A program made the translations under genes and the position numbers. A DNA stretch of 64,000 nt from Felixounavirus LF110P2. The notes below the pieces were generated by a model that was not told where the DNA came from, ran no database searches, and saw nothing but the letters and a program-made list of their open reading frames with translations. The stretch lies in the sequence record OZ035782.1, one strand, 5' to 3'. Positions 23,007 to 63,685 of the stretch are shown here, in pieces. Within the stretch, counting starts at the first letter, position 1, and every line of letters starts with the position of its first letter.

Positions 23007-23204
23007 ATGCCTACAATCCTAGCAATTCTTCTAAAAAATCTAGGTAGCTTCTTCTGGAAACTCATTTTATCCCTTCTAAGTGAATACATGATTGAGAAAG
23101 TGTTCTTTAAGCTTGCAAGATACCTTGCGAGTAAAACAGACACACCTATTGATGATGAGTTCGTAGATAACTTAGAAAAAGCTTTTAAGGGGGAGAATAA
23201 ATGA
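23007..23204 (+). CDS. Hypothetical small protein
   Basis: 65 aa ORF with RBS GAGGTG; amphipathic N-terminus. Confidence 0.25.
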   Translation: MPTILAILLKNLGSFFWKLILSLLSEYMIEKVFFKLARYLASKTDTPIDDEFVDNLEKAFKGENK

Positions 23205-23572
23205 AGTGGCTAGAGGAAGCTTTTAAAAATAATATTGGTGCAATTGTAGTTGGTATTTTTAGTGTTATTGGGATGTATACCACGATGCAAGTTTCAAGTG
23301 GTAAACAAGAAGTGTCTGTCACAACAAAGTTACAGCAGCTAGATAATTATTCCAAAAGTAACTATTCAGCTATTCGTGATTTACAGTCTGACATGAGACT
23401 GATTCAGCTAGGGATGGAGAACCAGAAAGTTCAGTTAGAGAATGTTAAGGGTGAAAACGCAAAACTTACTAAGACTCTCGATAAATTCTCTGACAGTGTG
23501 AACAATCTGGCTCAATCAGTATCAGCCTTGCAAGCTATTACTGAAAAGAACACAAAGAATACTGAAAGATAA
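23201..23572 (+). CDS. Membrane-anchored coiled-coil protein (function unknown; holin-like or fibre-associated)
   Basis: N-terminal hydrophobic helix IGAIVVGIFSVIGMY followed by heptad-like Q/L/N-rich sequence. Confidence 0.3.
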   Translation: MKWLEEAFKNNIGAIVVGIFSVIGMYTTMQVSSGKQEVSVTTKLQQLDNYSKSNYSAIRDLQSDMRLIQLGMENQKVQLENVKGENAKLTKTLDKFSDSVNNLAQSVSALQAITEKNTKNTER

Positions 23573-46179: not shown

Positions 46180-46421
46180 TGACTTATGTAATTTACTCCA
46201 AAACTGGATGCCCTCAGTGCGAGACTGCAAAGAATTTTGCAAAAGCTCGTGGTATTGACCATGTTGTGAGAATGTTAGGGCAGGACTATGAACTATCAGA
46301 CCTGATTGATATTGCACAGATGCCAGTTCGTCAGATGCCATTCATCATGAAAACTGATGGGCAAAACCTAAAACCTGTTGGTACGCTACAGAATTTTATG
46401 GCAGAGGTGAATAATGCTTAA
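46179..46421 (+). CDS. Glutaredoxin / NrdH-like redoxin
   Basis: Active-site CPQC in an 80 aa thioredoxin-fold-sized ORF directly after nrdB. Confidence 0.65.
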   Translation: MTYVIYSKTGCPQCETAKNFAKARGIDHVVRMLGQDYELSDLIDIAQMPVRQMPFIMKTDGQNLKPVGTLQNFMAEVNNA

Positions 46422-46620
46422 ACGCATTTGGGAAGGTTTTGTTGTTGATGCACCAGCTATTGTGATTGGTATGCTTATTGTTAACCTATTTACTGACTTT
46501 GAACAAGGTTCATTGTTTGGAGCCATGTTACTATGGGTTATCTTCGAAATATTAGAGATACAGTTAGGTATCACTGAAAAACTAAGAGAACTCTTTGCGA
46601 AGTTTTCTAAAAAGATTTAA
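46414..46620 (+). CDS. Small hydrophobic protein
   Basis: 68 aa with two hydrophobic segments; followed by terminator. Confidence 0.25.
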   Translation: MLKRIWEGFVVDAPAIVIGMLIVNLFTDFEQGSLFGAMLLWVIFEILEIQLGITEKLRELFAKFSKKI

Positions 46621-46668: not shown

Positions 46669-48813
46669 ATGAACAAAGTACAGATTATTAAAAAGAATGG
46701 CTCACTTGAAGAACCTGATATCAAAAAAGTTTTAGCAGCAGTCACAAAGTCAGCTAACAGAGTTGGTTATAAAGAGCTTCCACCAGATGTTACTCAAGCT
46801 CTTGAGTCAGCATTTATGAGGATTCTGGTAAAGTCCACTAAGCAGAATAATTTGCTAATTTCGGTAAATGATATTCACAGTATTGTTGAGGGTGCTTTGG
46901 CAGAAGTCAATCACGAGATTTATGAGTCTTACTCAACATATAGAAATTACCGTAAAGAGGTTGCTCAAAATTGGGATGAACTCTACCAGAAGACCAAAGA
47001 TACACTCTTCTTAGGCGACCGAGAAAACGCTAATTTTGACAGCAGTTTAATTTCTACAAAAGGCTCAATTATTCGTGGTTACCTGACTAAAGAAATCTTT
47101 AAACAGTACCATTTAACACCAGAGGAACTTGAAGCCATTGAAAAAGGATTTATCTATATCCATGATTTAAGAGACCTAATTTTTGGTGGTATCAACTGTT
47201 GCCTGTTTGACATTGGTAAAGTCCTGAAAGGTGGCTTTGAAATGTCTGGCATCGAATATTGTGAACCGAAGTCTGTGCTGTCAGCCTTACAGGTTATTGG
47301 TGATGTAGTTCTTTCAGCAACTGCACAGCAATTTGGTGGCTTTACTTTAGCAGAGATTGATAAGGTACTTGTACCGTATGCTAAGAAGTCTCTACGCTAT
47401 CATGCTGAGAAAGCAGCATCTTATGGTATTCCTAAAGAACATTACCATAATTATGTCATGGAGCAGCTACAGATTGAATTAACTCAAGGTTTTCAGTCAC
47501 TTGAAATGAAACTGAACACTGTACCTTGCAGCCGTGGTGATTTCGCATTCACAACTTTAACATTCGGGTTACTTGACTCAGATATGTCTAATGAAGACAA
47601 CCGACTACAATACATGATTGCAAGTACTCTCCTAGATGTTCGTATGAATGGACAAGGTAAGAGCAAGAAGCCTGTTGTATTCCCTAAACTGGTTTATATT
47701 CATGACCAGAAGAGACACGATGAGAATATCTGTCAAGGTCAACTGTACAGTAAAGCTATTGAGTGTTGCTCTAAAGCGATGTATCCAGATTTCTTAAGCG
47801 TATCTGGTCATGGTGCTGTAGCAGAAGCTTTTGAGCGTTCTGGCAAGGTAATTTCACCGATGGGTTGCAGAGCTTTCTTATCCCCATATCTTAACGAGAA
47901 TGGAGAAGAGTTCTACGTTGGACGTGCTAACATTGGTGCTGTATCTTTGAACTTGCCAATGATTTACCAGTATTCTAAAGAGAATGGTTTAGATTTCTGG
48001 AAAGAGCTTGATAAGTACCTAGAGATGATTCGCAGCTTCCACAAGAAACGCTACGAAATGATTGCTAATATGCCAGCAAGTTCTAACCCTCTTGCATTCA
48101 CACAAGGTGGTCTGTACAAAGGGACTAAGAAACCTACTGACAAGGTTGGTTGGGATATCGTGAAGTCCTTCACAGCTTCTTTTGGGGTTACTGCTCTTGA
48201 TGAGCTGTCTGTTCTTGCTGAAGGTAAACGACTTCATGAAGTTGGAAGCTATAGTTTTGCATACGATGTTCTGGCATACATTAACATGAAAACTGAAGAG
48301 TTTAAGAACGAAGATGGCTTCTTGTATGCGGTATATGGCACTCCAGCAGAATCACTTTGTGGAACTCAGTTAAAACAGTTCAGAGATATGTTTGGCGTTA
48401 TTAAAGGTGTCTCTGACAAGGAATATTTTACAAACAGTTTCCATATGAATGTTGCAGCAGATATCTCACCATTTGAGAAGCAGGACTTAGAAGAGCCATT
48501 CTTCCATATCTGTAGAGGCGGCAGAATCCAGTATGTGAGGGTAGCTAACCCAGAAAACTTACCAGCACTTAAAAGTTGTATTACAAGAGGGATGTTGAAG
48601 GGTTTTTATCAAGGACTTAACTTTGACTTAGCAATCTGTGAACATTGTGGTAACAGACCAAAGGCTGATGTTGAAGAATGTGAGGTTTGTCATTCACACG
48701 ATATCTCTGTGATTAACAGGGTGTGCGGGTACTTGTCATTCACAAAAATTAAAGGTCAGTCTCGAATGAATGACGCTAAGATGGCAGAAATTAAGGATAG
48801 GGTTTCTATGTAG
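46669..48813 (+). CDS. nrdD: Anaerobic ribonucleoside-triphosphate reductase (class III)
   Basis: C-terminal glycyl-radical signature RVCGYLSF preceded by a Cys cluster (CEHCG...CEVCH); 714 aa. Confidence 0.85.
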   Translation: MNKVQIIKKNGSLEEPDIKKVLAAVTKSANRVGYKELPPDVTQALESAFMRILVKSTKQNNLLISVNDIHSIVEGALAEVNHEIYESYSTYRNYRKEVAQNWDELYQKTKDTLFLGDRENANFDSSLISTKGSIIRGYLTKEIFKQYHLTPEELEAIEKGFIYIHDLRDLIFGGINCCLFDIGKVLKGGFEMSGIEYCEPKSVLSALQVIGDVVLSATAQQFGGFTLAEIDKVLVPYAKKSLRYHAEKAASYGIPKEHYHNYVMEQLQIELTQGFQSLEMKLNTVPCSRGDFAFTTLTFGLLDSDMSNEDNRLQYMIASTLLDVRMNGQGKSKKPVVFPKLVYIHDQKRHDENICQGQLYSKAIECCSKAMYPDFLSVSGHGAVAEAFERSGKVISPMGCRAFLSPYLNENGEEFYVGRANIGAVSLNLPMIYQYSKENGLDFWKELDKYLEMIRSFHKKRYEMIANMPASSNPLAFTQGGLYKGTKKPTDKVGWDIVKSFTASFGVTALDELSVLAEGKRLHEVGSYSFAYDVLAYINMKTEEFKNEDGFLYAVYGTPAESLCGTQLKQFRDMFGVIKGVSDKEYFTNSFHMNVAADISPFEKQDLEEPFFHICRGGRIQYVRVANPENLPALKSCITRGMLKGFYQGLNFDLAICEHCGNRPKADVEECEVCHSHDISVINRVCGYLSFTKIKGQSRMNDAKMAEIKDRVSM

Positions 48814-48820
48814 AATACAA

Positions 48821-49399
48821 ATGAATTACGAACTAATATATAATGCAATTATTAAAAAGGCACATTCTGAAAGGGGTGTGCCTCTCACATACTACAAATG
48901 TCAAGGTAAGGGTTATGAAAGACACCATATCATACCAGTATGTCTAGGTGGCGATAAAATTAGTGGAGATAACATTGCTTTACTTACACCTAGAGAGCAT
49001 TATATAGCTCATAAATTACTGGTTAAGATGTATCCAAACAATCATAAGTTATGGTTTGCATGGAGCAGGTTAGCTCATGATGGCCTAGATAGGAAAATAT
49101 CATCCAGAGACTATGAAAAGGTAAGGGCTTTAAACTCGAAAGCTCTATCGATTGTGAATAAAGGTAGGGTTTTCACTGAAGAGCATCGAAGACGATTAGG
49201 AGAAGCTCAAATAGGTAATACAAAGTCAAAAGGTTGTAAAAGGTCTATGGAAACAAGGAAGAAGATGTCAGAAGCCGGAAAAAAGCCAAAGAAAAAGAAA
49301 ACTTGCCCGCATTGTGGCATGACTGGTGGTGCTGGTAACATGACTCGATATCATTTTGACAATTGTAAGAAAAAAAAAATAACCTTATGTAAAACTTGA
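48821..49399 (+). CDS. HNH homing endonuclease (free-standing, between nrdD and nrdG)
   Basis: HNH core YERHHIIPVCLGGDKISGDNIALLTPREHYIAHKLL; C-terminal zinc knuckle CPHCG and Lys-rich tail. Confidence 0.6.
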   Translation: MNYELIYNAIIKKAHSERGVPLTYYKCQGKGYERHHIIPVCLGGDKISGDNIALLTPREHYIAHKLLVKMYPNNHKLWFAWSRLAHDGLDRKISSRDYEKVRALNSKALSIVNKGRVFTEEHRRRLGEAQIGNTKSKGCKRSMETRKKMSEAGKKPKKKKTCPHCGMTGGAGNMTRYHFDNCKKKKITLCKT

Positions 49400-49454: not shown

Positions 49455-49790
49455 ATGGACTTGTGGCTTTATGTAGCAGTTTGTGGGATTGTATGTCTGA
49501 TAATCTTATTTATTCTTGGAATAATGCGATTTAGAGACATCATACAGTCAGATTTTTTGCCTGAGTTTGCCATGATGGTTGGAGTTATTGCACTTTGTGT
49601 CTTGGCGGTGTTCTATTCATACAAAACTGTGATATGGATGAAGTCAAACAATTGTGTAAAAACTCATCAACATCGTGAGGTTACTTATTTTGTGAGTGTA
49701 CTTAGTGGGAACACCACTGTACTTGTCCCACAAACTTCTGTAGAGTATCTTTACACATGTGATAATGGTAAAACTATATGGTGGAATTAA
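49455..49790 (+). CDS. Small membrane protein
   Basis: Two hydrophobic helices; ATG preceded by GGAG (track ORF starts at GTG 49404). Confidence 0.3.
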   Translation: MDLWLYVAVCGIVCLIILFILGIMRFRDIIQSDFLPEFAMMVGVIALCVLAVFYSYKTVIWMKSNNCVKTHQHREVTYFVSVLSGNTTVLVPQTSVEYLYTCDNGKTIWWN

Positions 49791-49993
49791 CAATGGCAAC
49801 ACTCTTAAAGGTATTGACACCCACACTACACATAGTAATCTTCTTCTTTGGGGTTAGTGTTATGGTATGGGGTTTTTCAGACCCACAATGGAGTTTATCA
49901 TATCATGGACAAATGGATTTATGGTCATGCTTCAAACCATTTTTAGGGTTAGCTATAGCATTCAGTGCATTACCAACTAGGGTGAAATTATGA
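49778..49993 (+). CDS. Small membrane protein
   Basis: 71 aa, hydrophobic. Confidence 0.25.
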   Translation: MVELTMATLLKVLTPTLHIVIFFFGVSVMVWGFSDPQWSLSYHGQMDLWSCFKPFLGLAIAFSALPTRVKL

Positions 49994-55727: not shown

Positions 55728-58094
55728 ATGCGCATGGTAAATGACCACGCAGAAGTGATTAAGAGTTCAACTTCTTTGGAGACATCTCAAGCACAGATTA
55801 CAATGACACCTGAAATGTTCAGTCTTCTGAGTTCTGGTGTATATACCTTTAAAGAAAGGGCAGTGATTCGTGAACTGTCATGTAACGCAGTAGATGCTCA
55901 GAAAGAAGCTGGAAAAGAGAATATTCCGTTCCATGTGCATTTACCTACTCGTTTTGAACCTTACTTTGAAGTCCGTGATTTTGGCACTGGATTGACTCAT
56001 GATAAAGTTATGAGTTTGTACCTAAACTACGGGGCTTCTACGAAGAATGACTCTAATGACTACATTGGTGCAATGGGTATCGGCTCAAAATCTCCATTTG
56101 CAATTGCTCAGTCATTCACAGTGTCTAGCTATGTTGACGGTGTTGTTAATAAGTACTCTGTTTATCTTGAGAATGGTATCCCTCAAGTAACTAAGCTAAC
56201 CACTAACCCAACAAAAGAACCTAATGGTTTAGCTGTACGTGTAGCAGTTGCTGACCACCGTATTTCAAAGTTCTTTGAAGAGGCTGGTAATGTATACTCA
56301 TACTTTGCTGTAAAACCAGAGAGTAATGTGGAGTATAATGATATATTAGCAGATATGGATGTGATTGCTCGTGAAGAAGGTGTCTATGATGCCATGACTC
56401 ATAAGCATAGCTGGCGTTCAAGCAGCAATAGAACAGAGTTTAACGTGGTTATGGGTAATATTGCCTACCCAGTTAATATGGAGGCATTACTTGGTGATGA
56501 TTTCTTCAAAGTCTTGCCAGAATTTTTCCGTAGGAGCGTAGACCTTGTAAACATCTACATGCCTATTGGCTCAGTTGCTATTGCAGCTTCTCGTGAAGCA
56601 TTGCAGATGAATGACACGACAAAAAATGTTATCATCGAGGCTACTAAAAAGATAACTGAAGCAATTACAAAGGATGTTATCAAGAAAGTTAACAGTCAAC
56701 CTACACTCATGGATGCTGCACAGGCTTATGCTGAGTTACGTTTGAACTCACGAGAGATGTTTAATGCTGTGTGTCCAAAGCTAGAGTGGGGAGGCGTTAA
56801 GCTTGATTCTCTGGAAGAAGAATTGCTAAACATTCGTCGTGGAATTATCTACGCAGAAGACGGCTCAGTCATCTATGAACGTGATGGTAAGGGTAATATT
56901 AAGGTTGACAGGAACGGAAACAATATCCCTAAAGTAGATTATCTTTATGACCCAGTTGCTTATGTTAAGTTTAACTCTTTAGAAAGTAAGATTCGTGCAA
57001 CAGCACTTTCCTACACTCAAGAGGCAAGTATGTTCAATATCTTTGGCGCAATGCGTAAAAGCCAAATTGAACAGTTTTTGTTTGTTATAAACGACCGTCG
57101 CAATAAAAATGGTACTGAGAAGACTGTAGGACGCAATCAGATTCTGCGTGGTGCATGTCGAGACTATGCCAGTGAGTCTAGTCTGTTTCACAGATATAAT
57201 GGCATTGTGTTTGTATTCTCGACTGAAAAAGAGTTAGATGATTTAATCAATCTACACAAACTTGATAAAAGCTTGTTAAAGATTGTGAAAATGTCTGATA
57301 AGGAGCACCATTACCAGCGTAAAGAAGCTGTAAGGGGTGTTGTAAAACTCTGGAAAGCTGTTCCAGCAGAAGGTGTAGCTTCCTATAAAGAGGTTTCAGA
57401 GGACTTTGATACAATTGAAGAGCCTCAGCTTTACATTAAGGCAGTTGGCGACACAGTTGATGGCGAATGTTTTTGCTCATCTCCAGAAGATGTAGCCAAG
57501 TCAGTTGCTAATGTTACAGGGAAGACAGTCTATGTTTTCCGAAAAGCAAATTGGAAAAAGATACCAGAAGACTGGATTGAAGTAGATGAGAAACTCTTGA
57601 ACGACAGCTTAACTGATGTTCATTGGATTAATCATAACAGATATATGACACGCATCTACATGAATGGTGTTCTTGACCTGACAAGCAGTTGGATTATTGC
57701 CAGAAACTTTACGTTCAATAACAGGAAGATTTCTCGTGGCTATTGCTATTCACGGGATACAAACAAAACTATCTTCCTAGAAGGAAATGAAGATGCTGTA
57801 GAGGCAATGTTTGGTAAAATCCAATACGTTGCTGCACCATTTGCATACACTTATACTATTAGTGTATTAAAAACTTTGAAAGACTGTCTTGACAATGATA
57901 CAAAGCTTTACAAGAAAATTAAGAAAGCTGGTGACCGTATGGTCATTAAGGTGACAAACTACCTTTCAAAAAGAAAACAAGAAAACTTCTTGCTTTCTCA
58001 TTTGGATTGGAATAAAGTGTCACCCATCGAAGTGAGTAAGTTCTTAGGCTTTGATGTAAAATGTGTTCCAGAAGGGACTACAATTTACGATTAA
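55728..58094 (+). CDS. rIIA: rIIA-like protein (GHKL-type ATPase domain)
   Basis: N-terminal Bergerat-fold motifs IRELSCNAVDA (N box), RDFGTGL (G1), IGAMGIGSKSPF (G2), and ...MPIGSVAIAASREAL..., matching T4 rIIA as recalled; followed by rIIB-like gene. Confidence 0.7.
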   Translation: MRMVNDHAEVIKSSTSLETSQAQITMTPEMFSLLSSGVYTFKERAVIRELSCNAVDAQKEAGKENIPFHVHLPTRFEPYFEVRDFGTGLTHDKVMSLYLNYGASTKNDSNDYIGAMGIGSKSPFAIAQSFTVSSYVDGVVNKYSVYLENGIPQVTKLTTNPTKEPNGLAVRVAVADHRISKFFEEAGNVYSYFAVKPESNVEYNDILADMDVIAREEGVYDAMTHKHSWRSSSNRTEFNVVMGNIAYPVNMEALLGDDFFKVLPEFFRRSVDLVNIYMPIGSVAIAASREALQMNDTTKNVIIEATKKITEAITKDVIKKVNSQPTLMDAAQAYAELRLNSREMFNAVCPKLEWGGVKLDSLEEELLNIRRGIIYAEDGSVIYERDGKGNIKVDRNGNNIPKVDYLYDPVAYVKFNSLESKIRATALSYTQEASMFNIFGAMRKSQIEQFLFVINDRRNKNGTEKTVGRNQILRGACRDYASESSLFHRYNGIVFVFSTEKELDDLINLHKLDKSLLKIVKMSDKEHHYQRKEAVRGVVKLWKAVPAEGVASYKEVSEDFDTIEEPQLYIKAVGDTVDGECFCSSPEDVAKSVANVTGKTVYVFRKANWKKIPEDWIEVDEKLLNDSLTDVHWINHNRYMTRIYMNGVLDLTSSWIIARNFTFNNRKISRGYCYSRDTNKTIFLEGNEDAVEAMFGKIQYVAAPFAYTYTISVLKTLKDCLDNDTKLYKKIKKAGDRMVIKVTNYLSKRKQENFLLSHLDWNKVSPIEVSKFLGFDVKCVPEGTTIYD

Positions 58095-58104
58095 AGTGTT
58101 TGAC

Positions 58105-58124
58105 AAGGGGCTTCAAAGCCCCTT
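58105..58124 (+). other. Hairpin AAGGGGCTT-caa-AGCCCCTT overlapping a TTGACA element after rIIA
   Basis: Perfect 8-bp stem; upstream TTGACA at 58100-58105; no U-tract downstream. Confidence 0.3.
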
Positions 58125-58173
58125 AAAATGGCATCACAAAATGATTTATTAACTAACAAGAGAGAGTAATAAG

Positions 58174-59283
58174 ATGACTACTAAAACTAAAGCACAGATT
58201 GACGCAGAAATTTACAAACTGGTTAAAGAGGGCAAGCTGACTAAAACCGCTATTGCACAGAAATTTAACACCTCAACCCGTTCAGTCGGTCGTGCTGTAG
58301 AGCGTCATGAAGCAACCTTAAAAGGGAATAAGAAGGTGACTTCTACACCAGCTACGAAGACTTTGAAGCAAGTTGCTAAGACCTTTAAAAAGAAAGCTGA
58401 CAAACCAGTTGAAAAGGTTGTTAAAGATGCTGTACAGAAAGCTCCAGTAAATAAACTGCATGAAGCTATGCAGAAAGATGACAAGATTGAGTACATGATT
58501 ACTGGTGACTCTGTAATTATGACTTACGGTTCAGAGTCTGAAATTGTTGAATCTACTCATCCGAACTATCAAGAGATTGTAGTTCATGTTGTGAAAGGTG
58601 AGTTTAAGAAAGCCTTTGAACTGATGAACATTCGTAAGTCTATCGAAAACTTCACTCAGGGTGCTATCACAATCAAAGGCGACAAACTATTCTACGGTGC
58701 TGTTGAGATGCGTTCTACTCTGGTTGACCGTATTCTTCACATGATGAAGACTGGAGATAAAGGTTTCGAACGCCTTGTGATGTTCTTCGAAAAACTGATG
58801 GAAAACCCATCTAAAGATTCCGTAGAACAACTTTGGGGCTTCGTATCTCACCTTGATGTTGAAATTGATGAAGAAGGCTACATCATTGGTTGGAAGAAAG
58901 TATCTACTCGTGAAGGCAAGCTGGTTGACTCCCACACCTACAGAGTACCTAATGATTTGGGTAACATTGTAGAAATGCCACGTTGGATGGTTGATAATAA
59001 CCGTAACGTGACTTGCTCTCAAGGTCTTCATGTTGGTGCTTGGGATTATGTTCGTTGTTTCTCAGGTGATACAATTCTGAAGGTTCGTGTCCATCCACGA
59101 GACGTTGTATCCGTACCAACTGATTACAACGATATGAAGATGCGCTCGTCTCGTTATGAAGTTGCAGCAATCGTTGATAATCAACGTAAAGTGCTGAAAG
59201 CATGGGATGGCAAGACTGAAGCTTTACATGTCATCGTTGGTACTGCTGGAGAACTTATCTCCCAACGTAAACGTGAAATCTAA
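58174..59283 (+). CDS. rIIB: rIIB-like protein
   Basis: C-terminal ...SQGLHVGAWDY...KVRVHPRDVVSVPTDYNDMKMRSSRYEV... matches the conserved rIIB C-terminal region as recalled from T4. Confidence 0.7.
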   Translation: MTTKTKAQIDAEIYKLVKEGKLTKTAIAQKFNTSTRSVGRAVERHEATLKGNKKVTSTPATKTLKQVAKTFKKKADKPVEKVVKDAVQKAPVNKLHEAMQKDDKIEYMITGDSVIMTYGSESEIVESTHPNYQEIVVHVVKGEFKKAFELMNIRKSIENFTQGAITIKGDKLFYGAVEMRSTLVDRILHMMKTGDKGFERLVMFFEKLMENPSKDSVEQLWGFVSHLDVEIDEEGYIIGWKKVSTREGKLVDSHTYRVPNDLGNIVEMPRWMVDNNRNVTCSQGLHVGAWDYVRCFSGDTILKVRVHPRDVVSVPTDYNDMKMRSSRYEVAAIVDNQRKVLKAWDGKTEALHVIVGTAGELISQRKREI

Positions 59284-59300
59284 TAAGTAATTTCTTAAAA

Positions 59301-59322
59301 GGCTGCTTCGGCGGCCTTTTTT
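59301..59322 (+). terminator. Intrinsic terminator
   Basis: GGCTGC ttcg GCGGCC hairpin followed by TTTTTT. Confidence 0.55.
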
Positions 59323-59346
59323 ATTTGTATTTTGTGCAGAGTGCTG

Positions 59347-59352
59347 TATAAT
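59347..59352 (+). promoter_or_regulatory. Consensus -10 hexamer TATAAT upstream of ORF 59384
   Basis: Perfect TATAAT 32 nt upstream of the ATG, with weak -35 TTTGTA at 17-nt spacing. Confidence 0.3.
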
Positions 59353-59383
59353 TGTTGTCACGATAAACTAAACAGGAGAACCA

Positions 59384-59932
59384 ATGAAGAAATTGATTCT
59401 AGGTTTGTGCTTAATGTTTACAGCACACTTATCTTATGCAGTTGACTGCCCAGAGCTATCAATTAGCCAAAAAGTAAACATGTTAAAAGCTTACCAGTAT
59501 GGTGAGAATAACATGGGTAAAGGTTGGGGTATCACTCTAGCTGCTATAGCCTTACAAGAGTCAGAGTTAGGTCTGAAGGTAGAGAATAAAAAGACACATG
59601 ATTATGGTATTTTCCAGAATCACTTGAAGACTGTTGTAAAGCGTAACAAAATTAGTCCTAATGTGGCTAAAAAGAAACTCTTAAGAGACTTTGACTATGC
59701 TGCAAAGGAAACGCACAAAGAACTTGAATTTTGGACAAAGGTGCATGGTCAGCCAAAGTCAAAGAAAACTTTACAAAAAGTTTTAGCATCATATAATGCT
59801 GGGTATTCGTACAGAATCCCTAAAGCTAAAAAATATTCTCAAGATGTCTATAACAACATGAAAGTTATCGCTCAATGTGAATTTGCAACAAACATTTCTA
59901 AGGTAAATCATGAAAAAATTAAGAAAGTCTGA
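59384..59932 (+). CDS. Secreted lysozyme-like / lytic transglycosylase-domain protein (endolysin candidate)
   Basis: Signal peptide MKKLILGLCLMFTAHLSYA, then ...LAAIALQESELG...DYGIFQ... resembling the SLT catalytic Glu-Ser and GLMQ-like motif. Confidence 0.35.
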   Translation: MKKLILGLCLMFTAHLSYAVDCPELSISQKVNMLKAYQYGENNMGKGWGITLAAIALQESELGLKVENKKTHDYGIFQNHLKTVVKRNKISPNVAKKKLLRDFDYAAKETHKELEFWTKVHGQPKSKKTLQKVLASYNAGYSYRIPKAKKYSQDVYNNMKVIAQCEFATNISKVNHEKIKKV

Positions 59933-60605
59933 TGAAGTACTGTGTCATGCTTATGACTTACATCCTCATGAGTTAGGTCTTGATTCCTGTGTATGGACTC
60001 CAGAACAGTGTAGGGATTTTGAAGACACTGCAAGAGAAGTTGTATGTTCACTTGAAGAGTTTCACACATCAGAGCCAATTGTGAATGTTGTAGATAAAGA
60101 GACTGGACAAACTATAGGGGTAAGTCGTGATAGTTTAGTCATAGTCAATAAAGACCTTGTAGAAAAAGGTAACCTCATCTTAGCAGATATTGATGGTGTT
60201 CTTACAAATTTTAATCACGAAGATTGCTCAACGGAATTGACTGATGGGTCATTCTCACAGTACACTAATCTTCTTGACTCTGTAAGAGCAAAACCAACGT
60301 ATGTTTTTAGTATTATTGATGCAATTGCTAATCATGCTGCCATTGGACTCTTGACAGCGAGAGGTGAATCTCAGAGAATACCTACTGAGATGTTTTTAAG
60401 GCATAACATAGAGCATGACTACATGCTTTTTATGCGTGGTTTTGGAACTAACTCTATAAGTGCAGAAAGTTTGAAAGTGAGGATGATTCAGTCTTGCATC
60501 CTGCCTTACTTTAATATAGTATGTTTTATAGAAGACACAGAGAAGAATGTGCAGAAGGTGAACAGAATCCTTCCACACATTAAAACCATGTTAGTTAAAC
60601 ATTGA
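59910..60605 (+). CDS. Hypothetical protein, possible HAD-like hydrolase
   Basis: LILADIDGVLTNF resembles HAD motif I (DxDG); other motifs not placed. Confidence 0.25.
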   Translation: MKKLRKSDEVLCHAYDLHPHELGLDSCVWTPEQCRDFEDTAREVVCSLEEFHTSEPIVNVVDKETGQTIGVSRDSLVIVNKDLVEKGNLILADIDGVLTNFNHEDCSTELTDGSFSQYTNLLDSVRAKPTYVFSIIDAIANHAAIGLLTARGESQRIPTEMFLRHNIEHDYMLFMRGFGTNSISAESLKVRMIQSCILPYFNIVCFIEDTEKNVQKVNRILPHIKTMLVKH

Positions 60606-60615
60606 GAGAAAACTT

Positions 60616-61080
60616 ATGAACAATATCATTACGGTAGCACTGGACGATACGGTAAACAAATCCGCAGTAGTTCGTAAAATGATTCAAGGTAACTTTGAAG
60701 GTAAAATTTTTCGTGCTGTTAATGTAAAAGCTGATGGCAGCATTCGTGAATATCGTGCATTGTTGAACGTTAAGAAGCACGTAAAAGGTGTTGGTTCAAC
60801 GACTGCACACAAAGAAAACCTGATGACTATCTATGATATGGGTAAGGCTTCAGAGTTAGGTGCTGAAGGTATCGTTAAAGAAGGTGCTCCGTATCGCTCT
60901 TTCAATCTGGAAACTACTCTTATGCTTTCCTTTACAAGTGGTTCCAAAACAATCACTTATCTCTTTACTGATGCTGCAACGGTATCTGCTATTAAGGATA
61001 GCACTGTCAAAGCTGGCGTAGTTGCTGCTGCAAAAGCTTCTTCGATGGCTGCGAATATCCTTGCTAAAGTCCTCGGTTAA
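60616..61080 (+). CDS. Hypothetical protein
   Basis: 154 aa ORF followed by terminator. Confidence 0.3.
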   Translation: MNNIITVALDDTVNKSAVVRKMIQGNFEGKIFRAVNVKADGSIREYRALLNVKKHVKGVGSTTAHKENLMTIYDMGKASELGAEGIVKEGAPYRSFNLETTLMLSFTSGSKTITYLFTDAATVSAIKDSTVKAGVVAAAKASSMAANILAKVLG

Positions 61081-61092
61081 GGTTAAGATACA

Positions 61093-61113
61093 GGCTCCTT
61101 CGGGAGCCTTTTT
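61093..61113 (+). terminator. Intrinsic terminator
   Basis: GGCTCC ttcg GGAGCC hairpin followed by TTTTT. Confidence 0.6.
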
Positions 61114-61132
61114 CATTTCAGGAGATTGTTAA

Positions 61133-61480
61133 ATGACATTTAAAGAGTTCTGTCAAGCTACTTTCATAATTGTTTTCTTAGTTGGGGCGGGTGTCTGGGG
61201 AGGGTACTCTTACAGAGACTACCAAGTTGCTGAAACTGAGCTAAACAATCAAAAGCTCATAAGTGTTGCTAAAGATGCTTATCAGGAAGGATTAGTTACA
61301 CTGAGCGCCAATTACAAAAATGATTTGAAAGATGTGCTTGCTAAGAATAAGCACACAAAAGAGGTACTAACATATGAAAAAACTAAGCCAGAGTTTTATA
61401 ATGTTTGTGTTACTGATAATTATGTCAGGGTGTTCAACGAACAAAGTGAACAGTACATTCAAAAACTCCCAAGTAAGTGA
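61133..61480 (+). CDS. i-spanin (Rz-like, inner-membrane spanin subunit)
   Basis: N-terminal TM helix FIIVFLVGAGVWGGY followed by charged helical periplasmic domain; an overlapping +1-frame lipoprotein ORF begins inside it. Confidence 0.5.
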   Translation: MTFKEFCQATFIIVFLVGAGVWGGYSYRDYQVAETELNNQKLISVAKDAYQEGLVTLSANYKNDLKDVLAKNKHTKEVLTYEKTKPEFYNVCVTDNYVRVFNEQSEQYIQKLPSK

Positions 61481-61643
61481 GAGTGATAAGTACACTCAAG
61501 AAGAATCACGGTATATCATCAAAGGCAACACAGGCAGTGATGTAGCAGCAGCACTTGAGTTCTACCGTGACGGCTTTTACCAGTGTACAATTAAAGCTAA
61601 TAACCTTATTGACATGATTTTATTAGGGAATAAGCAGCAATGA
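61374..61643 (+). CDS. o-spanin (Rz1-like outer-membrane lipoprotein), overlapped with i-spanin
   Basis: MKKLSQSFIMFVLLIIMSGC: signal sequence with lipobox ending in Cys; AGAGGT RBS; starts within the i-spanin gene in another frame. Confidence 0.5.
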   Translation: MKKLSQSFIMFVLLIIMSGCSTNKVNSTFKNSQVSESDKYTQEESRYIIKGNTGSDVAAALEFYRDGFYQCTIKANNLIDMILLGNKQQ

Positions 61644-61909
61644 CAGAGAATCAAGACACTTTCTATGTAGAAGGTTACTTACTGTTGCCACGACCAAAAG
61701 AAACTTATATGCGAATCGATTTCTTACCAACCATTATGGATAATGTGATGTGTCATATCTTTATGCAAGGTGTCACAGCACAGCTTAAGCATGTTGGTAA
61801 AGATTGCAAAATAAAGGTTGACACTCATCCAGAAATCAAAGAGAATCACTACACATGGTTCTTACCAGATTCTAAAGAAATCTTAGCAGTTCTTAAAACG
61901 AGGAAGTAA
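61640..61909 (+). CDS. Hypothetical protein
   Basis: 89 aa ORF. Confidence 0.3.
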   Translation: MTENQDTFYVEGYLLLPRPKETYMRIDFLPTIMDNVMCHIFMQGVTAQLKHVGKDCKIKVDTHPEIKENHYTWFLPDSKEILAVLKTRK

Positions 61910-61911
61910 CT

Positions 61912-62238
61912 ATGCAGATTAATGGAAGAGACTTTGTAGCCGTTTACTACGAGAAAGATAAAGAAGTTGGCGTAGCACAAGTAACTTACGGCAATGGTAA
62001 GTGGCTATATGGAACAATTGCAGTGGTCGGAACAAGAAGTGACACAAAAACTTTTAAAGATTGTGTTGACCTTCTTGAAGAATCCATTCAGAATCATTGG
62101 TGTCTGATATGGATGACTGACAACGAAGTGATAGAACGCTTCAAAAAGATTGATATCAACATTGATAGTATTGAGCATGTTGATTTATATGAGCTAACTG
62201 AGAAGGTAAACTATGAAAGTAATACTAGCCAGAGATAA
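61912..62238 (+). CDS. Hypothetical protein
   Basis: 108 aa ORF with AGGAAG RBS. Confidence 0.3.
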   Translation: MQINGRDFVAVYYEKDKEVGVAQVTYGNGKWLYGTIAVVGTRSDTKTFKDCVDLLEESIQNHWCLIWMTDNEVIERFKKIDINIDSIEHVDLYELTEKVNYESNTSQR

Positions 62239-62440
62239 AAAGACACGAAAGCTTATCAGGTCAGCAGTGTTCATTGGACGAAATGAGGTCATCCCATTTA
62301 CAGCAAATGATGTGATAGCTTACAGGAAGAACTTAGTATTCACTGACTGCTTACGTGGCTTCATCTCTGAACCATTGGAAGACTTTAAAAGTCGTTGTGG
62401 TAAAGGTATCATCATTCAAGAGGCAATTATTCATGGCTGA
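62213..62440 (+). CDS. Hypothetical protein
   Basis: 75 aa ORF. Confidence 0.25.
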   Translation: MKVILARDKKTRKLIRSAVFIGRNEVIPFTANDVIAYRKNLVFTDCLRGFISEPLEDFKSRCGKGIIIQEAIIHG

Positions 62441-62633
62441 CTTCTGTAAAGATTGTTCTATCGAAATGTTCGGACGTGATACAGGTGACTTAAAAGGTCT
62501 TATCACTGAAGATGACTTTAAAGCTGGCTACGCAATGCCAGTAATCTGTGAAGGTTGTGGGTGCATCTGGGTAGACCACGAAGGGCAACGTGTAAAACCT
62601 TCAGAAGATAAAGAATCTTGGGAGAGATGTTAA
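62433..62633 (+). CDS. Small Cys-rich protein
   Basis: MADFCKDCSIEMF...ICEGCGC; start at internal ATG with AGAGG RBS. Confidence 0.25.
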   Translation: MADFCKDCSIEMFGRDTGDLKGLITEDDFKAGYAMPVICEGCGCIWVDHEGQRVKPSEDKESWERC

Positions 62634-63419
62634 ATGGGTATTGTAAAAATCATCAATGGCGATATCTTTGCAGCATTTGATAAAGGTAAGTTTGACATCA
62701 TTGGTCACGGTTGCAACTGTATGAATTTAATGGGTGCAGGTATCGCTGACAAGATTTCTAAACTTTACCCAAAAGCATATGAGACCGATACAGAAGTTTA
62801 CCTCTATGCAGGTGGTATAGGTCACAAACCCTGTGAAAATCTACTGGGTAATTTCTCTGTAGCACGTTTAGAACAAGGCCGTATAGCTAACCTTTACACT
62901 CAGCTTAAGACTGGTAAAGATGCCCGATACAGTGCTTTAGAGTCATCTTTGAAACAACTTAACAGATACTGTGAAGTCAATCAGTTGAAGAAAGTTGGGT
63001 TACCTATGATTGGTGCAGGTATCGGTGGACTAGACCCTCAAGCCGTCACAGTTATCATTAATCAGGTGATGAAGAGTGTAGATGTGTATCTTTATGTCTA
63101 CGAAGGAGAGATGTACCACAAGTTACGCTCAGGTTGGAAGAACTACTGTGAACCAGAATACTTTGCAGGTGTAGCAGTGTTCACAGATGATACAGTTACC
63201 CTCTTCAGACGAAGAAAAGGTAAGATACATCAAAGTAACCCTCCGGTTGAAAAGATGTCTCTAAGTAACGCTCTAGTTACCCACCTGTCGAAGAGCAATC
63301 ACAGGATTGCAGTAACATTTGGCAGTGATGCAGATACTTACATCTATGCAAGAACTGATGAGGATATCGAGACAGTTTTCTCTTCGCCAGAAGTTACCTT
63401 CTTAGACGCAAAGAACTAA
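62634..63419 (+). CDS. Macro-domain (ADP-ribose binding/processing) protein
   Basis: N-terminal GDIF...DIIGHGCNCMNLMGAGIA and second glycine motif LPMIGAGIGGLDP match the two conserved macro-domain loops. Confidence 0.45.
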   Translation: MGIVKIINGDIFAAFDKGKFDIIGHGCNCMNLMGAGIADKISKLYPKAYETDTEVYLYAGGIGHKPCENLLGNFSVARLEQGRIANLYTQLKTGKDARYSALESSLKQLNRYCEVNQLKKVGLPMIGAGIGGLDPQAVTVIINQVMKSVDVYLYVYEGEMYHKLRSGWKNYCEPEYFAGVAVFTDDTVTLFRRRKGKIHQSNPPVEKMSLSNALVTHLSKSNHRIAVTFGSDADTYIYARTDEDIETVFSSPEVTFLDAKN

Positions 63420-63450
63420 GAAACTTCGTAGGATATTCACAATAGACTAA

Positions 63451-63493
63451 GCCTTTCTTATCTGGTAAATTTTTCAGGTAAGGAGGGCTTTTT
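63451..63493 (+). terminator. Terminator-like hairpin with U-tract after macro-domain gene
   Basis: GCCTTTCTT pairs with AAGGAGGGC (two G-U pairs) around a 20-nt loop, followed by TTTTT. Confidence 0.3.
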
Positions 63494-63685
63494 CATTTCA
63501 GAATTGTGCAGGTATATTTCTATAGAGAAATCTGTAGAGAAAATTTTGAACTCCAAAGAGAAAATTCATTTTCAAATTGTGCAGGTAATCTCCAAAGGGC
63601 TTTTTCATTTTCAAAACGTGCAGACCCCGCTCAGGTCGGGCAAGAAAAATCATTTTAGAATCGTGCAGGTAGGTTTTTATAGAGA
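63487..63685 (+). repeat. Cluster of four direct repeats, core TCATTTT(C)A(R)AA(T/C)(Y)GTGCAG(GTA)
   Basis: Copies at about 63494-63515, 63567-63589, 63604-63625 and 63649-63670; two are preceded by CTCCAAAG(A/G)G and two followed by TATAGAGA. Confidence 0.6.

What the first reader, a model, noticed from the sequence alone, without database searches (positions are those of the whole stretch)
59384..61643. Lysis neighbourhood: signal-peptide SLT/lysozyme-like protein plus overlapped spanin pair, holin not identified
The i-spanin/o-spanin pair shows the overlapped architecture (lipoprotein ORF in +1 frame starting inside the TM-anchored ORF). The only muralytic-looking protein nearby carries a cleavable-looking Sec signal rather than a cytoplasmic or SAR-type N-terminus, which would make it a secreted endolysin. 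No classical holin with two or three TM helices is apparent between them; the membrane ORFs at 23201-23572, 46414-46620 or 49455-49993 are alternatives.
Basis: partly seen in the sequence, partly recalled or inferred. Interest (0 to 1): 0.4.

Follow-up and report, generated by a model that had tools for sequence, protein, structure and literature searches.

The report
Felix O1-type spanins plus Vs.1-like transglycosylase
This stretch of a Felix O1-type phage carries a genuine, already catalogued spanin pair and a secreted cell-wall-cutting protein related to phage T4 Vs.1, but that protein is not the phage's main lysis enzyme, because an ordinary lysozyme-type endolysin lies elsewhere in the same genome.

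Summary
The window is bases 1-64000 of Felixounavirus LF110P2 (OZ035766.1, 100% identity).

- **ORF 59384-59932:** 182 aa, with a short cleavable-type signal peptide and an SLT/GH23 domain.
- **Spanin pair:** an i-spanin (61133-61480) and a lipoprotein o-spanin (61374-61643) that starts in the +1 frame inside it and runs past its end. Kongari et al. 2018 already list this Felix O1 pair as 'overlapped'.

The same genome encodes a canonical soluble GH24 endolysin (Pfam Phage_lysozyme, E 3.9e-41) at 76167-76631 (-), outside the window. It is the counterpart of Felix O1 gp35.

ORF 59384 is a homolog of T4 Vs.1 (32% identity, E 2e-16). This signal-peptide, SLT-like family occurs in more than 2,000 phage records and sits beside a separate endolysin in all three genomes checked. 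Its function has never been tested.

Published descriptions of Felix O1-like phages say their lysis genes are scattered, not in a cassette. The holin is unproven.

Verdict: ordinary and largely known. The role of the Vs.1 family remains open.

The parts
59297..59320 (+). Intrinsic terminator after rIIB (10-bp stem, T-run). It separates rIIB from the SLT-like gene.
   Evidence: sequence read
59347..59352 (+). Perfect TATAAT -10 hexamer. An AGGAGA ribosome-binding site at 59374-59379 lies ahead of the ATG at 59384. This is a candidate own promoter; the -35 is poor and the scan did not flag it.
   Evidence: sequence read; inference
59384..59932 (+). Vs.1-family, Sec-exported GH23/SLT-like lytic transglycosylase (182 aa). 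The signal peptide is encoded by about 59384-59440. The catalytic Glu is E59, and Cys22/Cys165 form a probable periplasmic disulfide.
59910..60605 (+). 'Polynucleotide kinase' family gene (phrog_3970). Only the HAD 3'-phosphatase-like part (DIDGVLT) is recognisable. Not a lysis gene.
60616..61080 (+). Ounavirinae-restricted 154-aa protein of unknown function (phrog_2267). No TMD and no significant fold match. Not evidently a lysis gene.
61092..61109 (+). Intrinsic terminator just upstream of the i-spanin ribosome-binding site. Spanin expression therefore needs read-through.
61133..61480 (+). i-spanin (115 aa): N-terminal TMD at residues 6-24 and a periplasmic domain carrying Cys92.
61374..61643 (+). 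o-spanin (89 aa): lipoprotein signal with lipobox MSGC (Cys20), Ser at +2, periplasmic Cys71 and no proline. It lies in the +1 frame and has the overlapped architecture.
23201..23572 (+). Best holin candidate (123 aa, counterpart of Felix O1 gp79): a single N-terminal TMD and a roughly 95-aa hydrophilic C-terminal domain. Relatives annotate it as holin or putative holin. Unproven.
46414..46620 (+). Rival holin candidate (68 aa, counterpart of Felix O1 gp116): two TMDs and a charged C-terminus. It lies between the glutaredoxin and nrdD genes.

Best explanation
The region is part of the rIIA-side transcription unit of a Felix O1-type myovirus whose lysis genes are scattered, as in T4.

**Shown**
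- 61133-61480 and 61374-61643 have every sequence hallmark of a two-component spanin of the overlapped type: an inner-membrane-anchored subunit and an outer-membrane lipoprotein.
- ORF 59384 has a GH23/SLT fold with an intact catalytic-motif set and a short signal-peptide-like N-terminus.
- ORF 59384 is a homolog of T4 Vs.1.
- The genome separately encodes a soluble GH24 endolysin.

**Inferred**
- By analogy with other spanin pairs, the two subunits link across the periplasm and destroy the outer membrane once the wall is gone.
- The protein is exported by Sec, cleaved after Ala19, and stabilised by a Cys22-Cys165 disulfide.
- It cuts glycan strands from the periplasmic side as a lytic transglycosylase.
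- It acts as an accessory wall-remodelling or lysis-assisting enzyme. Possible roles are loosening the sacculus locally or priming it.
- The principal lysis pathway is holin, then GH24 endolysin (76167-76631, minus strand, outside the window), then spanins.
- The holin is most likely 23201-23572, with T4 T-like topology, but it is unproven.
For: **Identity of the window**
- 100% match to OZ035766.1 at the same coordinates.

**Spanins**
- PHROG Rz-like spanin, E 2e-41.
- TMD, lipobox, Ser at +2, one periplasmic Cys in each protein, +1 frame with 107-nt overlap.
- A ribosome-binding site lies before the o-spanin ATG.
- Relatives annotate the pair as i-/o-spanin.
- Kongari et al. 2018 list Felix01, FO1a and UAB_phi87 among overlapped two-component spanins.

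**SLT-like protein**
- Invariant E59, Q78, Y137-N138-x-G140 and Y151; S60 and G75 nearly invariant.
- AF2 pLDDT 84.7, with GH23 fold matches.
- Profile hit to the T3SS transglycosylase EtgA, E 7e-4.
- T4 Vs.1: 32% identity, E 2e-16, same length, also signal-bearing. Vs.1 itself passes the Pfam SLT cut-off.
- Cys22 and Cys165 are present together or absent together in all full-length homologs.
- 2123 phage records carry a homolog.

**Not the main endolysin**
- GH24 Phage_lysozyme, E 3.9e-41, and phrog_7 endolysin, E 1.7e-56, in the same genome.
- Felix O1 gp35 is named as the lysin.
- T4 carries both e and vs.1. A distant homolog's contig also carries a separate Phage_lysozyme gene.
- Established knowledge: T4 e mutants do not lyse although vs.1 is present.

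**Scattered lysis genes**
- Stated in the Moogle, Meda and Felix O1 genome papers.
Against: - No experiment exists for any Vs.1-family member, so the accessory role is inference.
- Felix O1 RT-PCR puts ORF 3 in the same 25-min class as the lysin (ORF 35) and i-spanin (ORF 6). ORF 3 is taken to be this gene by gene order. The timing therefore does not separate it from lysis functions.
- A 188-aa signal-peptide SLT protein is the experimentally supported endolysin of Campylobacter Fletchervirus phages. The architecture can therefore serve as a true endolysin.
- This sequence alone scores below Pfam's SLT threshold.
- The signal-peptide call rests on heuristics, not a trained predictor.
- The GH24 protein's role as the endolysin in vivo is itself inferred from family and in-vitro work on relatives, not from phage genetics.
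Confidence: 0.73

Rival explanations
1. ORF 59384 is a true signal-peptide endolysin. It is exported by Sec, held inactive on the energised membrane, and activated when a holin depolarises the membrane. It acts redundantly with, or instead of, the GH24 enzyme.
For: - The signal peptide plus SLT architecture is the same as the Fletchervirus F352 Lys. That protein lyses E. coli only with its holin and is blocked by azide.
- Several relatives annotate the gene as 'putative lysin'.
- Felix O1 ORF 3 peaks with lysin ORF 35 at 25 min.
Against: - A canonical GH24 endolysin is present in the same genome.
- F352 Lys shows no detectable sequence relationship to this family beyond the signal peptide.
- Its homolog Vs.1 coexists with e in T4. 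By established knowledge, T4 e mutants fail to lyse.
- The family sat beside a separate endolysin in each of the three genomes checked.
- No holin is adjacent.
Confidence: 0.13
2. ORF 59384 has a periplasmic role that is not lytic. It could exclude superinfecting phages or interfere with their entry, or it could bind or modify peptidoglycan, with little or no role in releasing progeny.
For: - It sits in a block of accessory genes with T4 counterparts: rIIA, rIIB, a PNK-like gene and a Macro/Tk.4-like gene.
- The same order is kept in a relative only 37% identical.
- Export begins well before lysis if the gene is transcribed by host RNA polymerase from its own TATAAT.
- Its nearest cellular relatives are 'specialised' transglycosylases that open local gaps without lysing the cell, namely EtgA and IagB.
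Against: - The catalytic motif set is strictly conserved, so it is very probably an active enzyme.
- No exclusion phenotype is known for T4 vs.1. No paper found gives any phenotype.
Confidence: 0.12
3. The spanin pair is a chance off-frame ORF, not a real o-spanin gene.
For: - Off-frame ORFs of 84-114 aa occur by chance in this AT-rich sequence.
- There is no sequence similarity to T4 PseT.3/PseT.2.
- The mature part contains no proline, unlike lambda Rz1.
Against: - A complete lipoprotein signal (KK n-region, hydrophobic core, lipobox MSGC) lies exactly at the ORF start, behind a ribosome-binding site.
- It belongs to a conserved protein family (phrog_4180, E 3e-51; weak Rz-like phrog_456).
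- It is annotated in relatives and listed in the spanin census.
Confidence: 0.02

Closest known systems
Felix O1 / UAB_Phi87 two-component spanin, overlapped class (Kongari et al. 2018; P2 LysB/LysC is the tested prototype of the class)
   Same: - Same genes, 96-98% DNA identity to annotated relatives.
- i-spanin with an N-terminal TMD, and a lipoprotein o-spanin that starts inside it in the +1 frame and runs past its stop.
- One periplasmic Cys in each protein.
   Different: - Nothing material.
- The mature o-spanin has no proline, and there is no sequence similarity to lambda Rz/Rz1 or T4 PseT.3/PseT.2.
Phage T4 Vs.1 (NP_049725, 181 aa; 'Vs.1 conserved transglycosylase SLT domain protein' in T4-like genomes)
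   Same: - Homologous: 32% identity, E 2e-16.
- Same length, signal-peptide-like N-terminus and SLT motifs.
- Coexists with a separate endolysin.
- Function untested; Nolan et al. 2006 say only 'some role in cell lysis'.
   Different: - The Felix-type proteins carry a Cys22/Cys165 pair that T4 Vs.1 lacks.
- The gene neighbours differ: rIIB and a PNK-like gene here, vs and regB in T4.
Specialised lytic transglycosylases of secretion systems (EtgA, IagB/IpgF, VirB1 class)
   Same: - Small (150-190 aa), Sec-exported, single-domain GH23 enzymes.
- EtgA is the best solved-structure sequence match (E 7e-4). A homolog shows a weak IagB hit.
   Different: - Similarity is remote, so this is not a member of those equivalogs.
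- No secretion apparatus partner is present, and the context is a phage.
Campylobacter Fletchervirus F352 Lys (signal-peptide SLT endolysin)
   Same: - Same architecture and size: signal peptide plus SLT, 188 aa.
- Phage with scattered lysis genes and an overlapped spanin pair.
   Different: - No detectable sequence relationship beyond the signal peptide.
- In F352 it was the only non-virion muralytic domain reported, whereas here a GH24 endolysin is present.
Felix O1 gp35 / LysO1-type endolysin (GH24, T4 lysozyme-like)
   Same: - The genome's counterpart (76167-76631, minus strand) is 154 aa and soluble.
- It has the E-8-D-5-T triad and Pfam Phage_lysozyme at E 3.9e-41.
   Different: - It lies outside the window and outside the finding.

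Membership tests
Two-component spanin, overlapped architecture | i-spanin: type II inner-membrane protein with a single N-terminal TMD and a periplasmic domain | tested here: met
   Hydrophobic segment at residues 6-24, remainder hydrophilic. phrog_1152 Rz-like spanin, E 2e-41.
Two-component spanin, overlapped architecture | o-spanin: outer-membrane lipoprotein signal (lipobox with Cys, no Asp at +2) | tested here: met
   MKKLSQSFIMFVLLIIMSG|C with lipobox MSGC, Cys20 and Ser at +2. This is a regular-expression and hydropathy check, not a trained predictor.
Two-component spanin, overlapped architecture | o-spanin gene starts inside the i-spanin gene in another frame and ends beyond it | tested here: met
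   Offset 241 nt (+1 frame), 107-nt overlap, and it ends 163 nt after the i-spanin stop.
Two-component spanin, overlapped architecture | Periplasmic cysteines available for intermolecular disulfides | tested here: met
   i-spanin Cys92 and o-spanin Cys71.
Two-component spanin, overlapped architecture | Required for outer-membrane disruption at lysis | not testable with these tools
   Needs phage genetics: a spherical-cell phenotype with Mg2+.
GH23 / family 1 lytic transglycosylase (Pfam SLT PF01464) | Catalytic Glu in an E-S motif, plus the G-x-x-Q and (A/S)-Y-N-x-G motifs | tested here: met
   E59, Q78, Y137-N138-x-G140 and Y151 are invariant, and S60 and G75 nearly invariant, in 15 homologs.
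GH23 / family 1 lytic transglycosylase (Pfam SLT PF01464) | Score above Pfam's gathering threshold | tested here: not met
   18.9 bits against a cut-off of 21.3 for this sequence. T4 Vs.1 scores 25.1 and passes, and distant homologs carry a precomputed PF01464 assignment.
GH23 / family 1 lytic transglycosylase (Pfam SLT PF01464) | Goose-lysozyme/SLT fold | tested here: met
   AF2 pLDDT 84.7. All top Foldseek PDB matches are GH23 at probability 1.0, although E-values are modest (4.6e-3 and weaker) and TM is about 0.5. Viral SLT proteins match at E 1.5e-9.
GH23 / family 1 lytic transglycosylase (Pfam SLT PF01464) | Cleaves MurNAc-GlcNAc bonds and forms 1,6-anhydroMurNAc | not testable with these tools
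   Needs an enzyme assay with muropeptide analysis.
T4 Vs.1 family | Sequence homology over the full length, with the same architecture | tested here: met
   BLASTP E 2e-16, 32% identity over residues 1-155, 181 vs 182 aa. T4-like genomes are among the 2123 tblastn hits.
Endolysin, signal-peptide (SP) type | Muralytic domain preceded by a cleavable Sec signal | tested here: met
   n-region MKK, an 11-residue hydrophobic core and an SYA|V site. Residues 1-19 lie outside the fold.
Endolysin, signal-peptide (SP) type | It is the muralytic enzyme responsible for lysis (the genome has no other endolysin) | tested here: not met
   A soluble GH24 endolysin is present at OZ035766.1 76167-76631 (-).
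Endolysin, signal-peptide (SP) type | Lysis depends on holin-triggered activation | not testable with these tools
   Needs a co-expression experiment.
SAR endolysin | An uncleaved, weakly hydrophobic, Gly/Ala/Ser-rich N-terminal TMD of about 20 residues | tested here: not met
   The hydrophobic core is only 11 residues (LILGLCLMFTA), Leu/Ile/Phe-rich, and followed by a small-x-small cleavage motif.
Canonical soluble GH24 endolysin (for the gene outside the window) | Phage_lysozyme domain with the E-8aa-D-5aa-T triad and no export signal | tested here: met
   PF00959 E 3.9e-41 and phrog_7 E 1.7e-56. E15, D24 and T30 were read from the sequence, and the N-terminus is not hydrophobic.
Class III (T4 T-like) holin, for 23201-23572 | A single N-terminal TMD with a large periplasmic C-terminal domain | tested here: met
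   TMD at about residues 12-28, followed by a roughly 95-residue hydrophilic tail.
Class III (T4 T-like) holin, for 23201-23572 | Homology to a known holin family | tested here: not met
   phrog_4038 'unknown function'. There is no holin Pfam hit, only a sub-threshold DivIC match. The holin labels in relatives are predictions.
Class III (T4 T-like) holin, for 23201-23572 | Membrane permeabilisation that times lysis | not testable with these tools
   Needs expression and genetic tests. The Meda genome paper states that no holin was identified.

The most novel reading that the evidence does not exclude
The Vs.1 family may be a general, unrecognised fourth player in envelope disruption by large virulent myoviruses. 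The family is conserved from T4-like phages through Felix O1-like phages and Ackermannviridae to jumbo phages. On this reading it is a Sec-exported transglycosylase that locally opens or pre-weakens the sacculus before holin triggering. That could let spanin complexes thread through the peptidoglycan mesh, or make lysis fast on highly cross-linked, non-growing cells.
Probability: 0.1. Interest if true: 0.6.

Novelty: already known. Interest (0 to 1): 0.2.

Why it matters
**For annotation**
- The 'putative lysin' label that relatives give this gene should not be read as the endolysin.
- Anyone mining Felixounavirus genomes for enzybiotics should take the GH24 gene, the gp35/LysO1 type.
- 'Lysis neighbourhood' is a misnomer for this region.

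**The one open point**
- The Vs.1 family is a signal-peptide-bearing transglycosylase-like protein kept in more than 2,000 sequenced phage records.
- It sat next to a separate endolysin in each of the three genomes checked.
- It has no assigned role and no experimental record that I could find.
- A knockout in T4 or a Felix O1-type phage would be cheap and informative.

The holin of Felix O1-type phages also remains unidentified by experiment.

Tried and rejected
1. I looked for the canonical lysin inside the window by tblastn with the Andreotti proteins. It is absent; only the holin candidate matched. It was then found in the rest of the record.
2. Single-sequence search of ORF 59384 against PDB sequences found nothing. 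Only the family profile reached EtgA and g-type lysozymes.
3. The afdb50 fold library was unavailable.
4. I tested whether the spanins and the PNK-like gene are homologs of T4 PseT.3, PseT.2 and PseT, since the T4 spanin genes also neighbour pseT. The spanins show no similarity, and the PNK-like gene shows only a marginal HAD-motif match. The adjacency is not evidence of common descent.
5. I tested whether the experimentally studied Fletchervirus SP-SLT endolysin belongs to the same family. There is no detectable similarity, so it is an analogue only.
7. I checked two small membrane ORFs next to the SLT gene in a distant relative for holin family membership. None was found.
8. A 'Campylobacter coli' homolog turned out to lie on a chimallin-bearing jumbo-phage contig, so it is not evidence of a bacterial origin.
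9. Literature searches found nothing functional for Vs.1 and no paper linking Felixounavirus with a lytic transglycosylase.
10. Two early scripts failed because locus files were not yet available.
Full report
**What the window is.**
- Megablast of 58000-63500 gives a 100% match at identical coordinates to Felixounavirus LF110P2 (OZ035766.1, 87,144 bp, unannotated). A further 236 records cover at least 80% of the query. These are Felix O1-like myoviruses of Escherichia, Salmonella, Shigella and Citrobacter.
- The window is therefore bases 1-64000 of that genome.

**Checking the observation.**
- The ORFs are as described. The order is rIIA (55728-58094), rIIB (58174-59283), ORF 59384-59932 (182 aa), ORF 59910-60605 (231 aa), ORF 60616-61080 (154 aa), ORF 61133-61480 (115 aa) and ORF 61374-61643 (89 aa).
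- The 182-aa protein begins MKKLILGLCLMFTAHLSYA|VDCPEL. It has a two-Lys n-region, an 11-residue Leu/Ile/Phe-rich core, Ser and Ala at -3/-1, and no lipobox. This is the pattern of a cleaved Sec signal, not of a SAR domain.
- Its Pfam SLT match is weak and below the curated cut-off (E 1.2e-3; 18.9 vs 21.3 bits). PHROGs places it in phrog_600, 'unknown function'.
- The 115-aa protein has one N-terminal TMD (residues 6-24) and hits phrog_1152 'Rz-like spanin' at E 2e-41.
- The 89-aa protein has a complete lipoprotein signal with lipobox MSGC, Cys20 and Ser at +2. It lies in the +1 frame, overlaps the i-spanin gene by 107 nt and runs 163 nt beyond it. An AAGAGG ribosome-binding site precedes its ATG.
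- Each spanin has one periplasmic Cys. No membrane protein is encoded between 59384 and 61133.
- One correction: '49455-49993' is two ORFs, not one.

**The spanins are real and already catalogued.**
- RefSeq and GenBank relatives annotate the same two genes as Rz-like spanin or i-/o-spanin.
- The spanin census of Kongari et al. 2018 lists 'Felix01, FO1a, UAB_phi87' among overlapped two-component spanins.
- They show no sequence similarity to T4 PseT.3 and PseT.2.

**The endolysin question.**
- The annotated relative Andreotti carries two 'putative lysin' genes. One is the homolog of ORF 59384. The other is a 154-aa protein next to an Ig-domain tail protein.
- The second gene is not in the window. 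It is in the rest of the same genome, at locus L005 12167-12631 (-), which is OZ035766.1 76167-76631.
- It matches Pfam Phage_lysozyme at E 3.9e-41 and phrog_7 'endolysin' at E 1.7e-56.
- It has the T4-lysozyme-type E15-(8)-D24-(5)-T30 triad and no hydrophobic N-terminus. It is therefore a soluble, holin-dependent endolysin.
- It corresponds to Felix O1 gp35, which Whichard et al. [quoted passage not shown]
- The genome announcements for Moogle and Meda say the same. They report an endolysin (soluble lysozyme or glycoside hydrolase) and spanins 'scattered around the genome'. The holin is only putative in Moogle and was not identified in Meda.

**What ORF 59384 is.**
- A search of 5.8 billion proteins found 21 relatives, the more distant of which carry a Pfam SLT assignment.
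- In the alignment E59, Q78, Y137-N138-x-G140 and Y151 are invariant, and S60 and G75 nearly so. From established knowledge, these are the signature motifs of family 1 lytic transglycosylases.
- Cys22 and Cys165 are present together or absent together in every full-length sequence. That fits a periplasmic disulfide.
- The AlphaFold model is confident (pLDDT 84.7, core above 95) and leaves residues 1-19 unstructured.
- Its best solved-structure matches are all GH23: cod and ostrich goose-type lysozymes, the Ralstonia GH23 chitinase, EtgA, Cj0843, MltD and phiKZ gp144. The family profile hits EtgA at E 7e-4.
- A profile search of 1.84 billion cluster representatives returns 1,268 relatives. Most of the 150 listed are 160-195 aa.
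- tblastn finds the gene in 2,123 phage records. These include Felixounaviruses, T4-like phages of many hosts, Ackermannviridae, and Vibrio, Aeromonas and Shewanella myoviruses.
- The T4 member is Vs.1, which lies between vs and regB. It is 181 aa, begins with its own signal-like MRKALLAGLLAISMMAHS, and is 32% identical at E 2e-16. It passes the Pfam SLT cut-off.
- Nolan et al. 2006 noted the marginal SLT match of Vs.1 orthologs and suggested 'some role in cell lysis'. I found no experimental work.
- A homolog labelled Campylobacter coli lies on a chimallin-bearing contig, so it comes from a jumbo phage.

**Why it is probably not the main endolysin.**
- In all three genomes I examined the family coexists with a separate endolysin: this genome (GH24), T4 (e), and a metagenomic phage carrying a distant homolog (Phage_lysozyme).
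- From established T4 genetics, e mutants fail to lyse although vs.1 is intact.
- The gene sits in a conserved block of T4-like accessory genes, in the order rIIA, rIIB, Vs.1-like, HAD/PNK-like and, further on, a Macro-domain protein like T4 Tk.4. The same order is kept in a relative whose Vs.1-like protein is only 37% identical.
- It has its own upstream terminator, a perfect TATAAT and a strong ribosome-binding site.

- The 188-aa endolysin of Campylobacter Fletchervirus phage F352 is a signal peptide plus an SLT domain. It lyses E. coli only together with its holin and is blocked by azide.
- That is the same architecture, but I could detect no sequence relationship. In F352 it was the only non-virion muralytic domain reported.
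- In Felix O1 RT-PCR, ORFs 1, 3, 4, 6 and 35 all peak at 25 min. By gene order from rIIA, which is gene 1, ORF 3 is this gene and ORF 6 is the i-spanin. The numbering is my inference.
- An auxiliary lysis role therefore cannot be excluded.

**The holin.**
- 23201-23572 is 98% identical to Andreotti's 'holin'. It is labelled holin or putative holin in Moogle, Mordin, BPS17W1 and others, and 'hypothetical' in many more.
- It has one N-terminal TMD and a long hydrophilic tail, which is T4 T-like topology. It matches no holin family.
- It is the counterpart of Felix O1 gp79, one of five candidates named by Whichard et al.. Oddly for a holin, gp79 peaked at 5 min in their RT-PCR.
- 46414-46620 is the counterpart of gp116. 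It is 68 aa, with two TMDs and a charged C-terminus, and is the class II-like rival.
- Neither candidate has been tested.

**The two genes in between.**
- ORF 59910-60605 belongs to a 'polynucleotide kinase' PHROG but aligns only with the HAD phosphatase half of T4 PseT.
- ORF 60616-61080 is confined to Ounavirinae, has no TMD and has no significant fold match.
- Neither looks like a lysis gene.

**Verdict.**
- The 'secreted endolysin' reading is not supported as the phage's lysis enzyme.
- The gene is a Vs.1-family, Sec-exported transglycosylase-like protein of unknown role.
- The overall finding is ordinary. The residual interest is the untested function of a very widespread phage protein family, plus the still-unidentified Felix O1 holin.

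Noticed in passing
window 59910-60605: The gene labelled 'polynucleotide kinase' (phrog_3970) aligns only to the HAD 3'-phosphatase half of T4 PseT (DIDGVLT motif). It has no Pfam hit and no recognisable kinase P-loop, so the kinase label may be overstated.
   Followed up: partly
[not shown]
   Followed up: partly
window 55728-63419; L011 1-11497: The block rIIA, rIIB, Vs.1-like, HAD/PNK-like and, further on, a Macro-domain protein (62634-63419, like T4 Tk.4) keeps the same order in a metagenomic relative whose Vs.1-like protein is only 37% identical. It gathers counterparts of several T4 accessory genes that are dispersed in T4.
   Followed up: partly
L011 6398-6905: In that distant relative, two small multi-TMD ORFs (92 and 75 aa) lie between rIIB and the SLT-like gene. 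They match no holin PHROG. If they were holin-like, this would hint at a lysis link for the SLT gene.
   Followed up: partly
window 46414-46620: A 68-aa protein with two TMDs and a charged C-terminus (class II holin-like topology) lies between the glutaredoxin and nrdD genes. It is the counterpart of Felix O1 gp116, one of the published holin candidates.
   Followed up: partly
window 23007-23204: A 65-aa ORF (phrog_402, unknown function) with a hydrophobic N-terminus ends in an ATGA overlap with the start of the holin candidate 23201-23572. It could be a partner or antiholin-like gene.
   Followed up: no
window 23201-23572 (Felix O1 gp79): Published Felix O1 RT-PCR shows ORF 79, the holin candidate, maximally expressed at 5 min after infection. 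It was not in the 60-min (late) class, which is unexpected for a holin placed after the tail-fibre genes.
   Followed up: no
window 61092-61132: A strong intrinsic terminator ends only 14 nt before the i-spanin ribosome-binding site, with no promoter-like site between. Spanin expression must therefore rely on terminator read-through.
   Followed up: no
L005 11317-11724 (OZ035766.1 75317-75724, minus strand): The homolog of the Andreotti gene annotated 'D-alanyl-D-alanine carboxypeptidase', two genes from the endolysin, has no Pfam hit and falls in an unknown-function PHROG. That label looks unsupported.
   Followed up: partly
L006 (GCA_053226485.1 contig, 214,766 bp): A contig filed under Campylobacter coli carries a phiKZ-type chimallin gene next to a Vs.1-family SLT gene. 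It is probably a jumbo-phage genome inside a bacterial assembly.
   Followed up: no
window 48770-49399: A 209-aa ORF begins 44 nt before the stop of the 714-aa nrdD-like ORF (46669-48813). It is rich in Cys/His and Lys/Arg motifs typical of HNH homing endonucleases. Relatives have the anaerobic reductase gene interrupted by a homing endonuclease.
   Followed up: no
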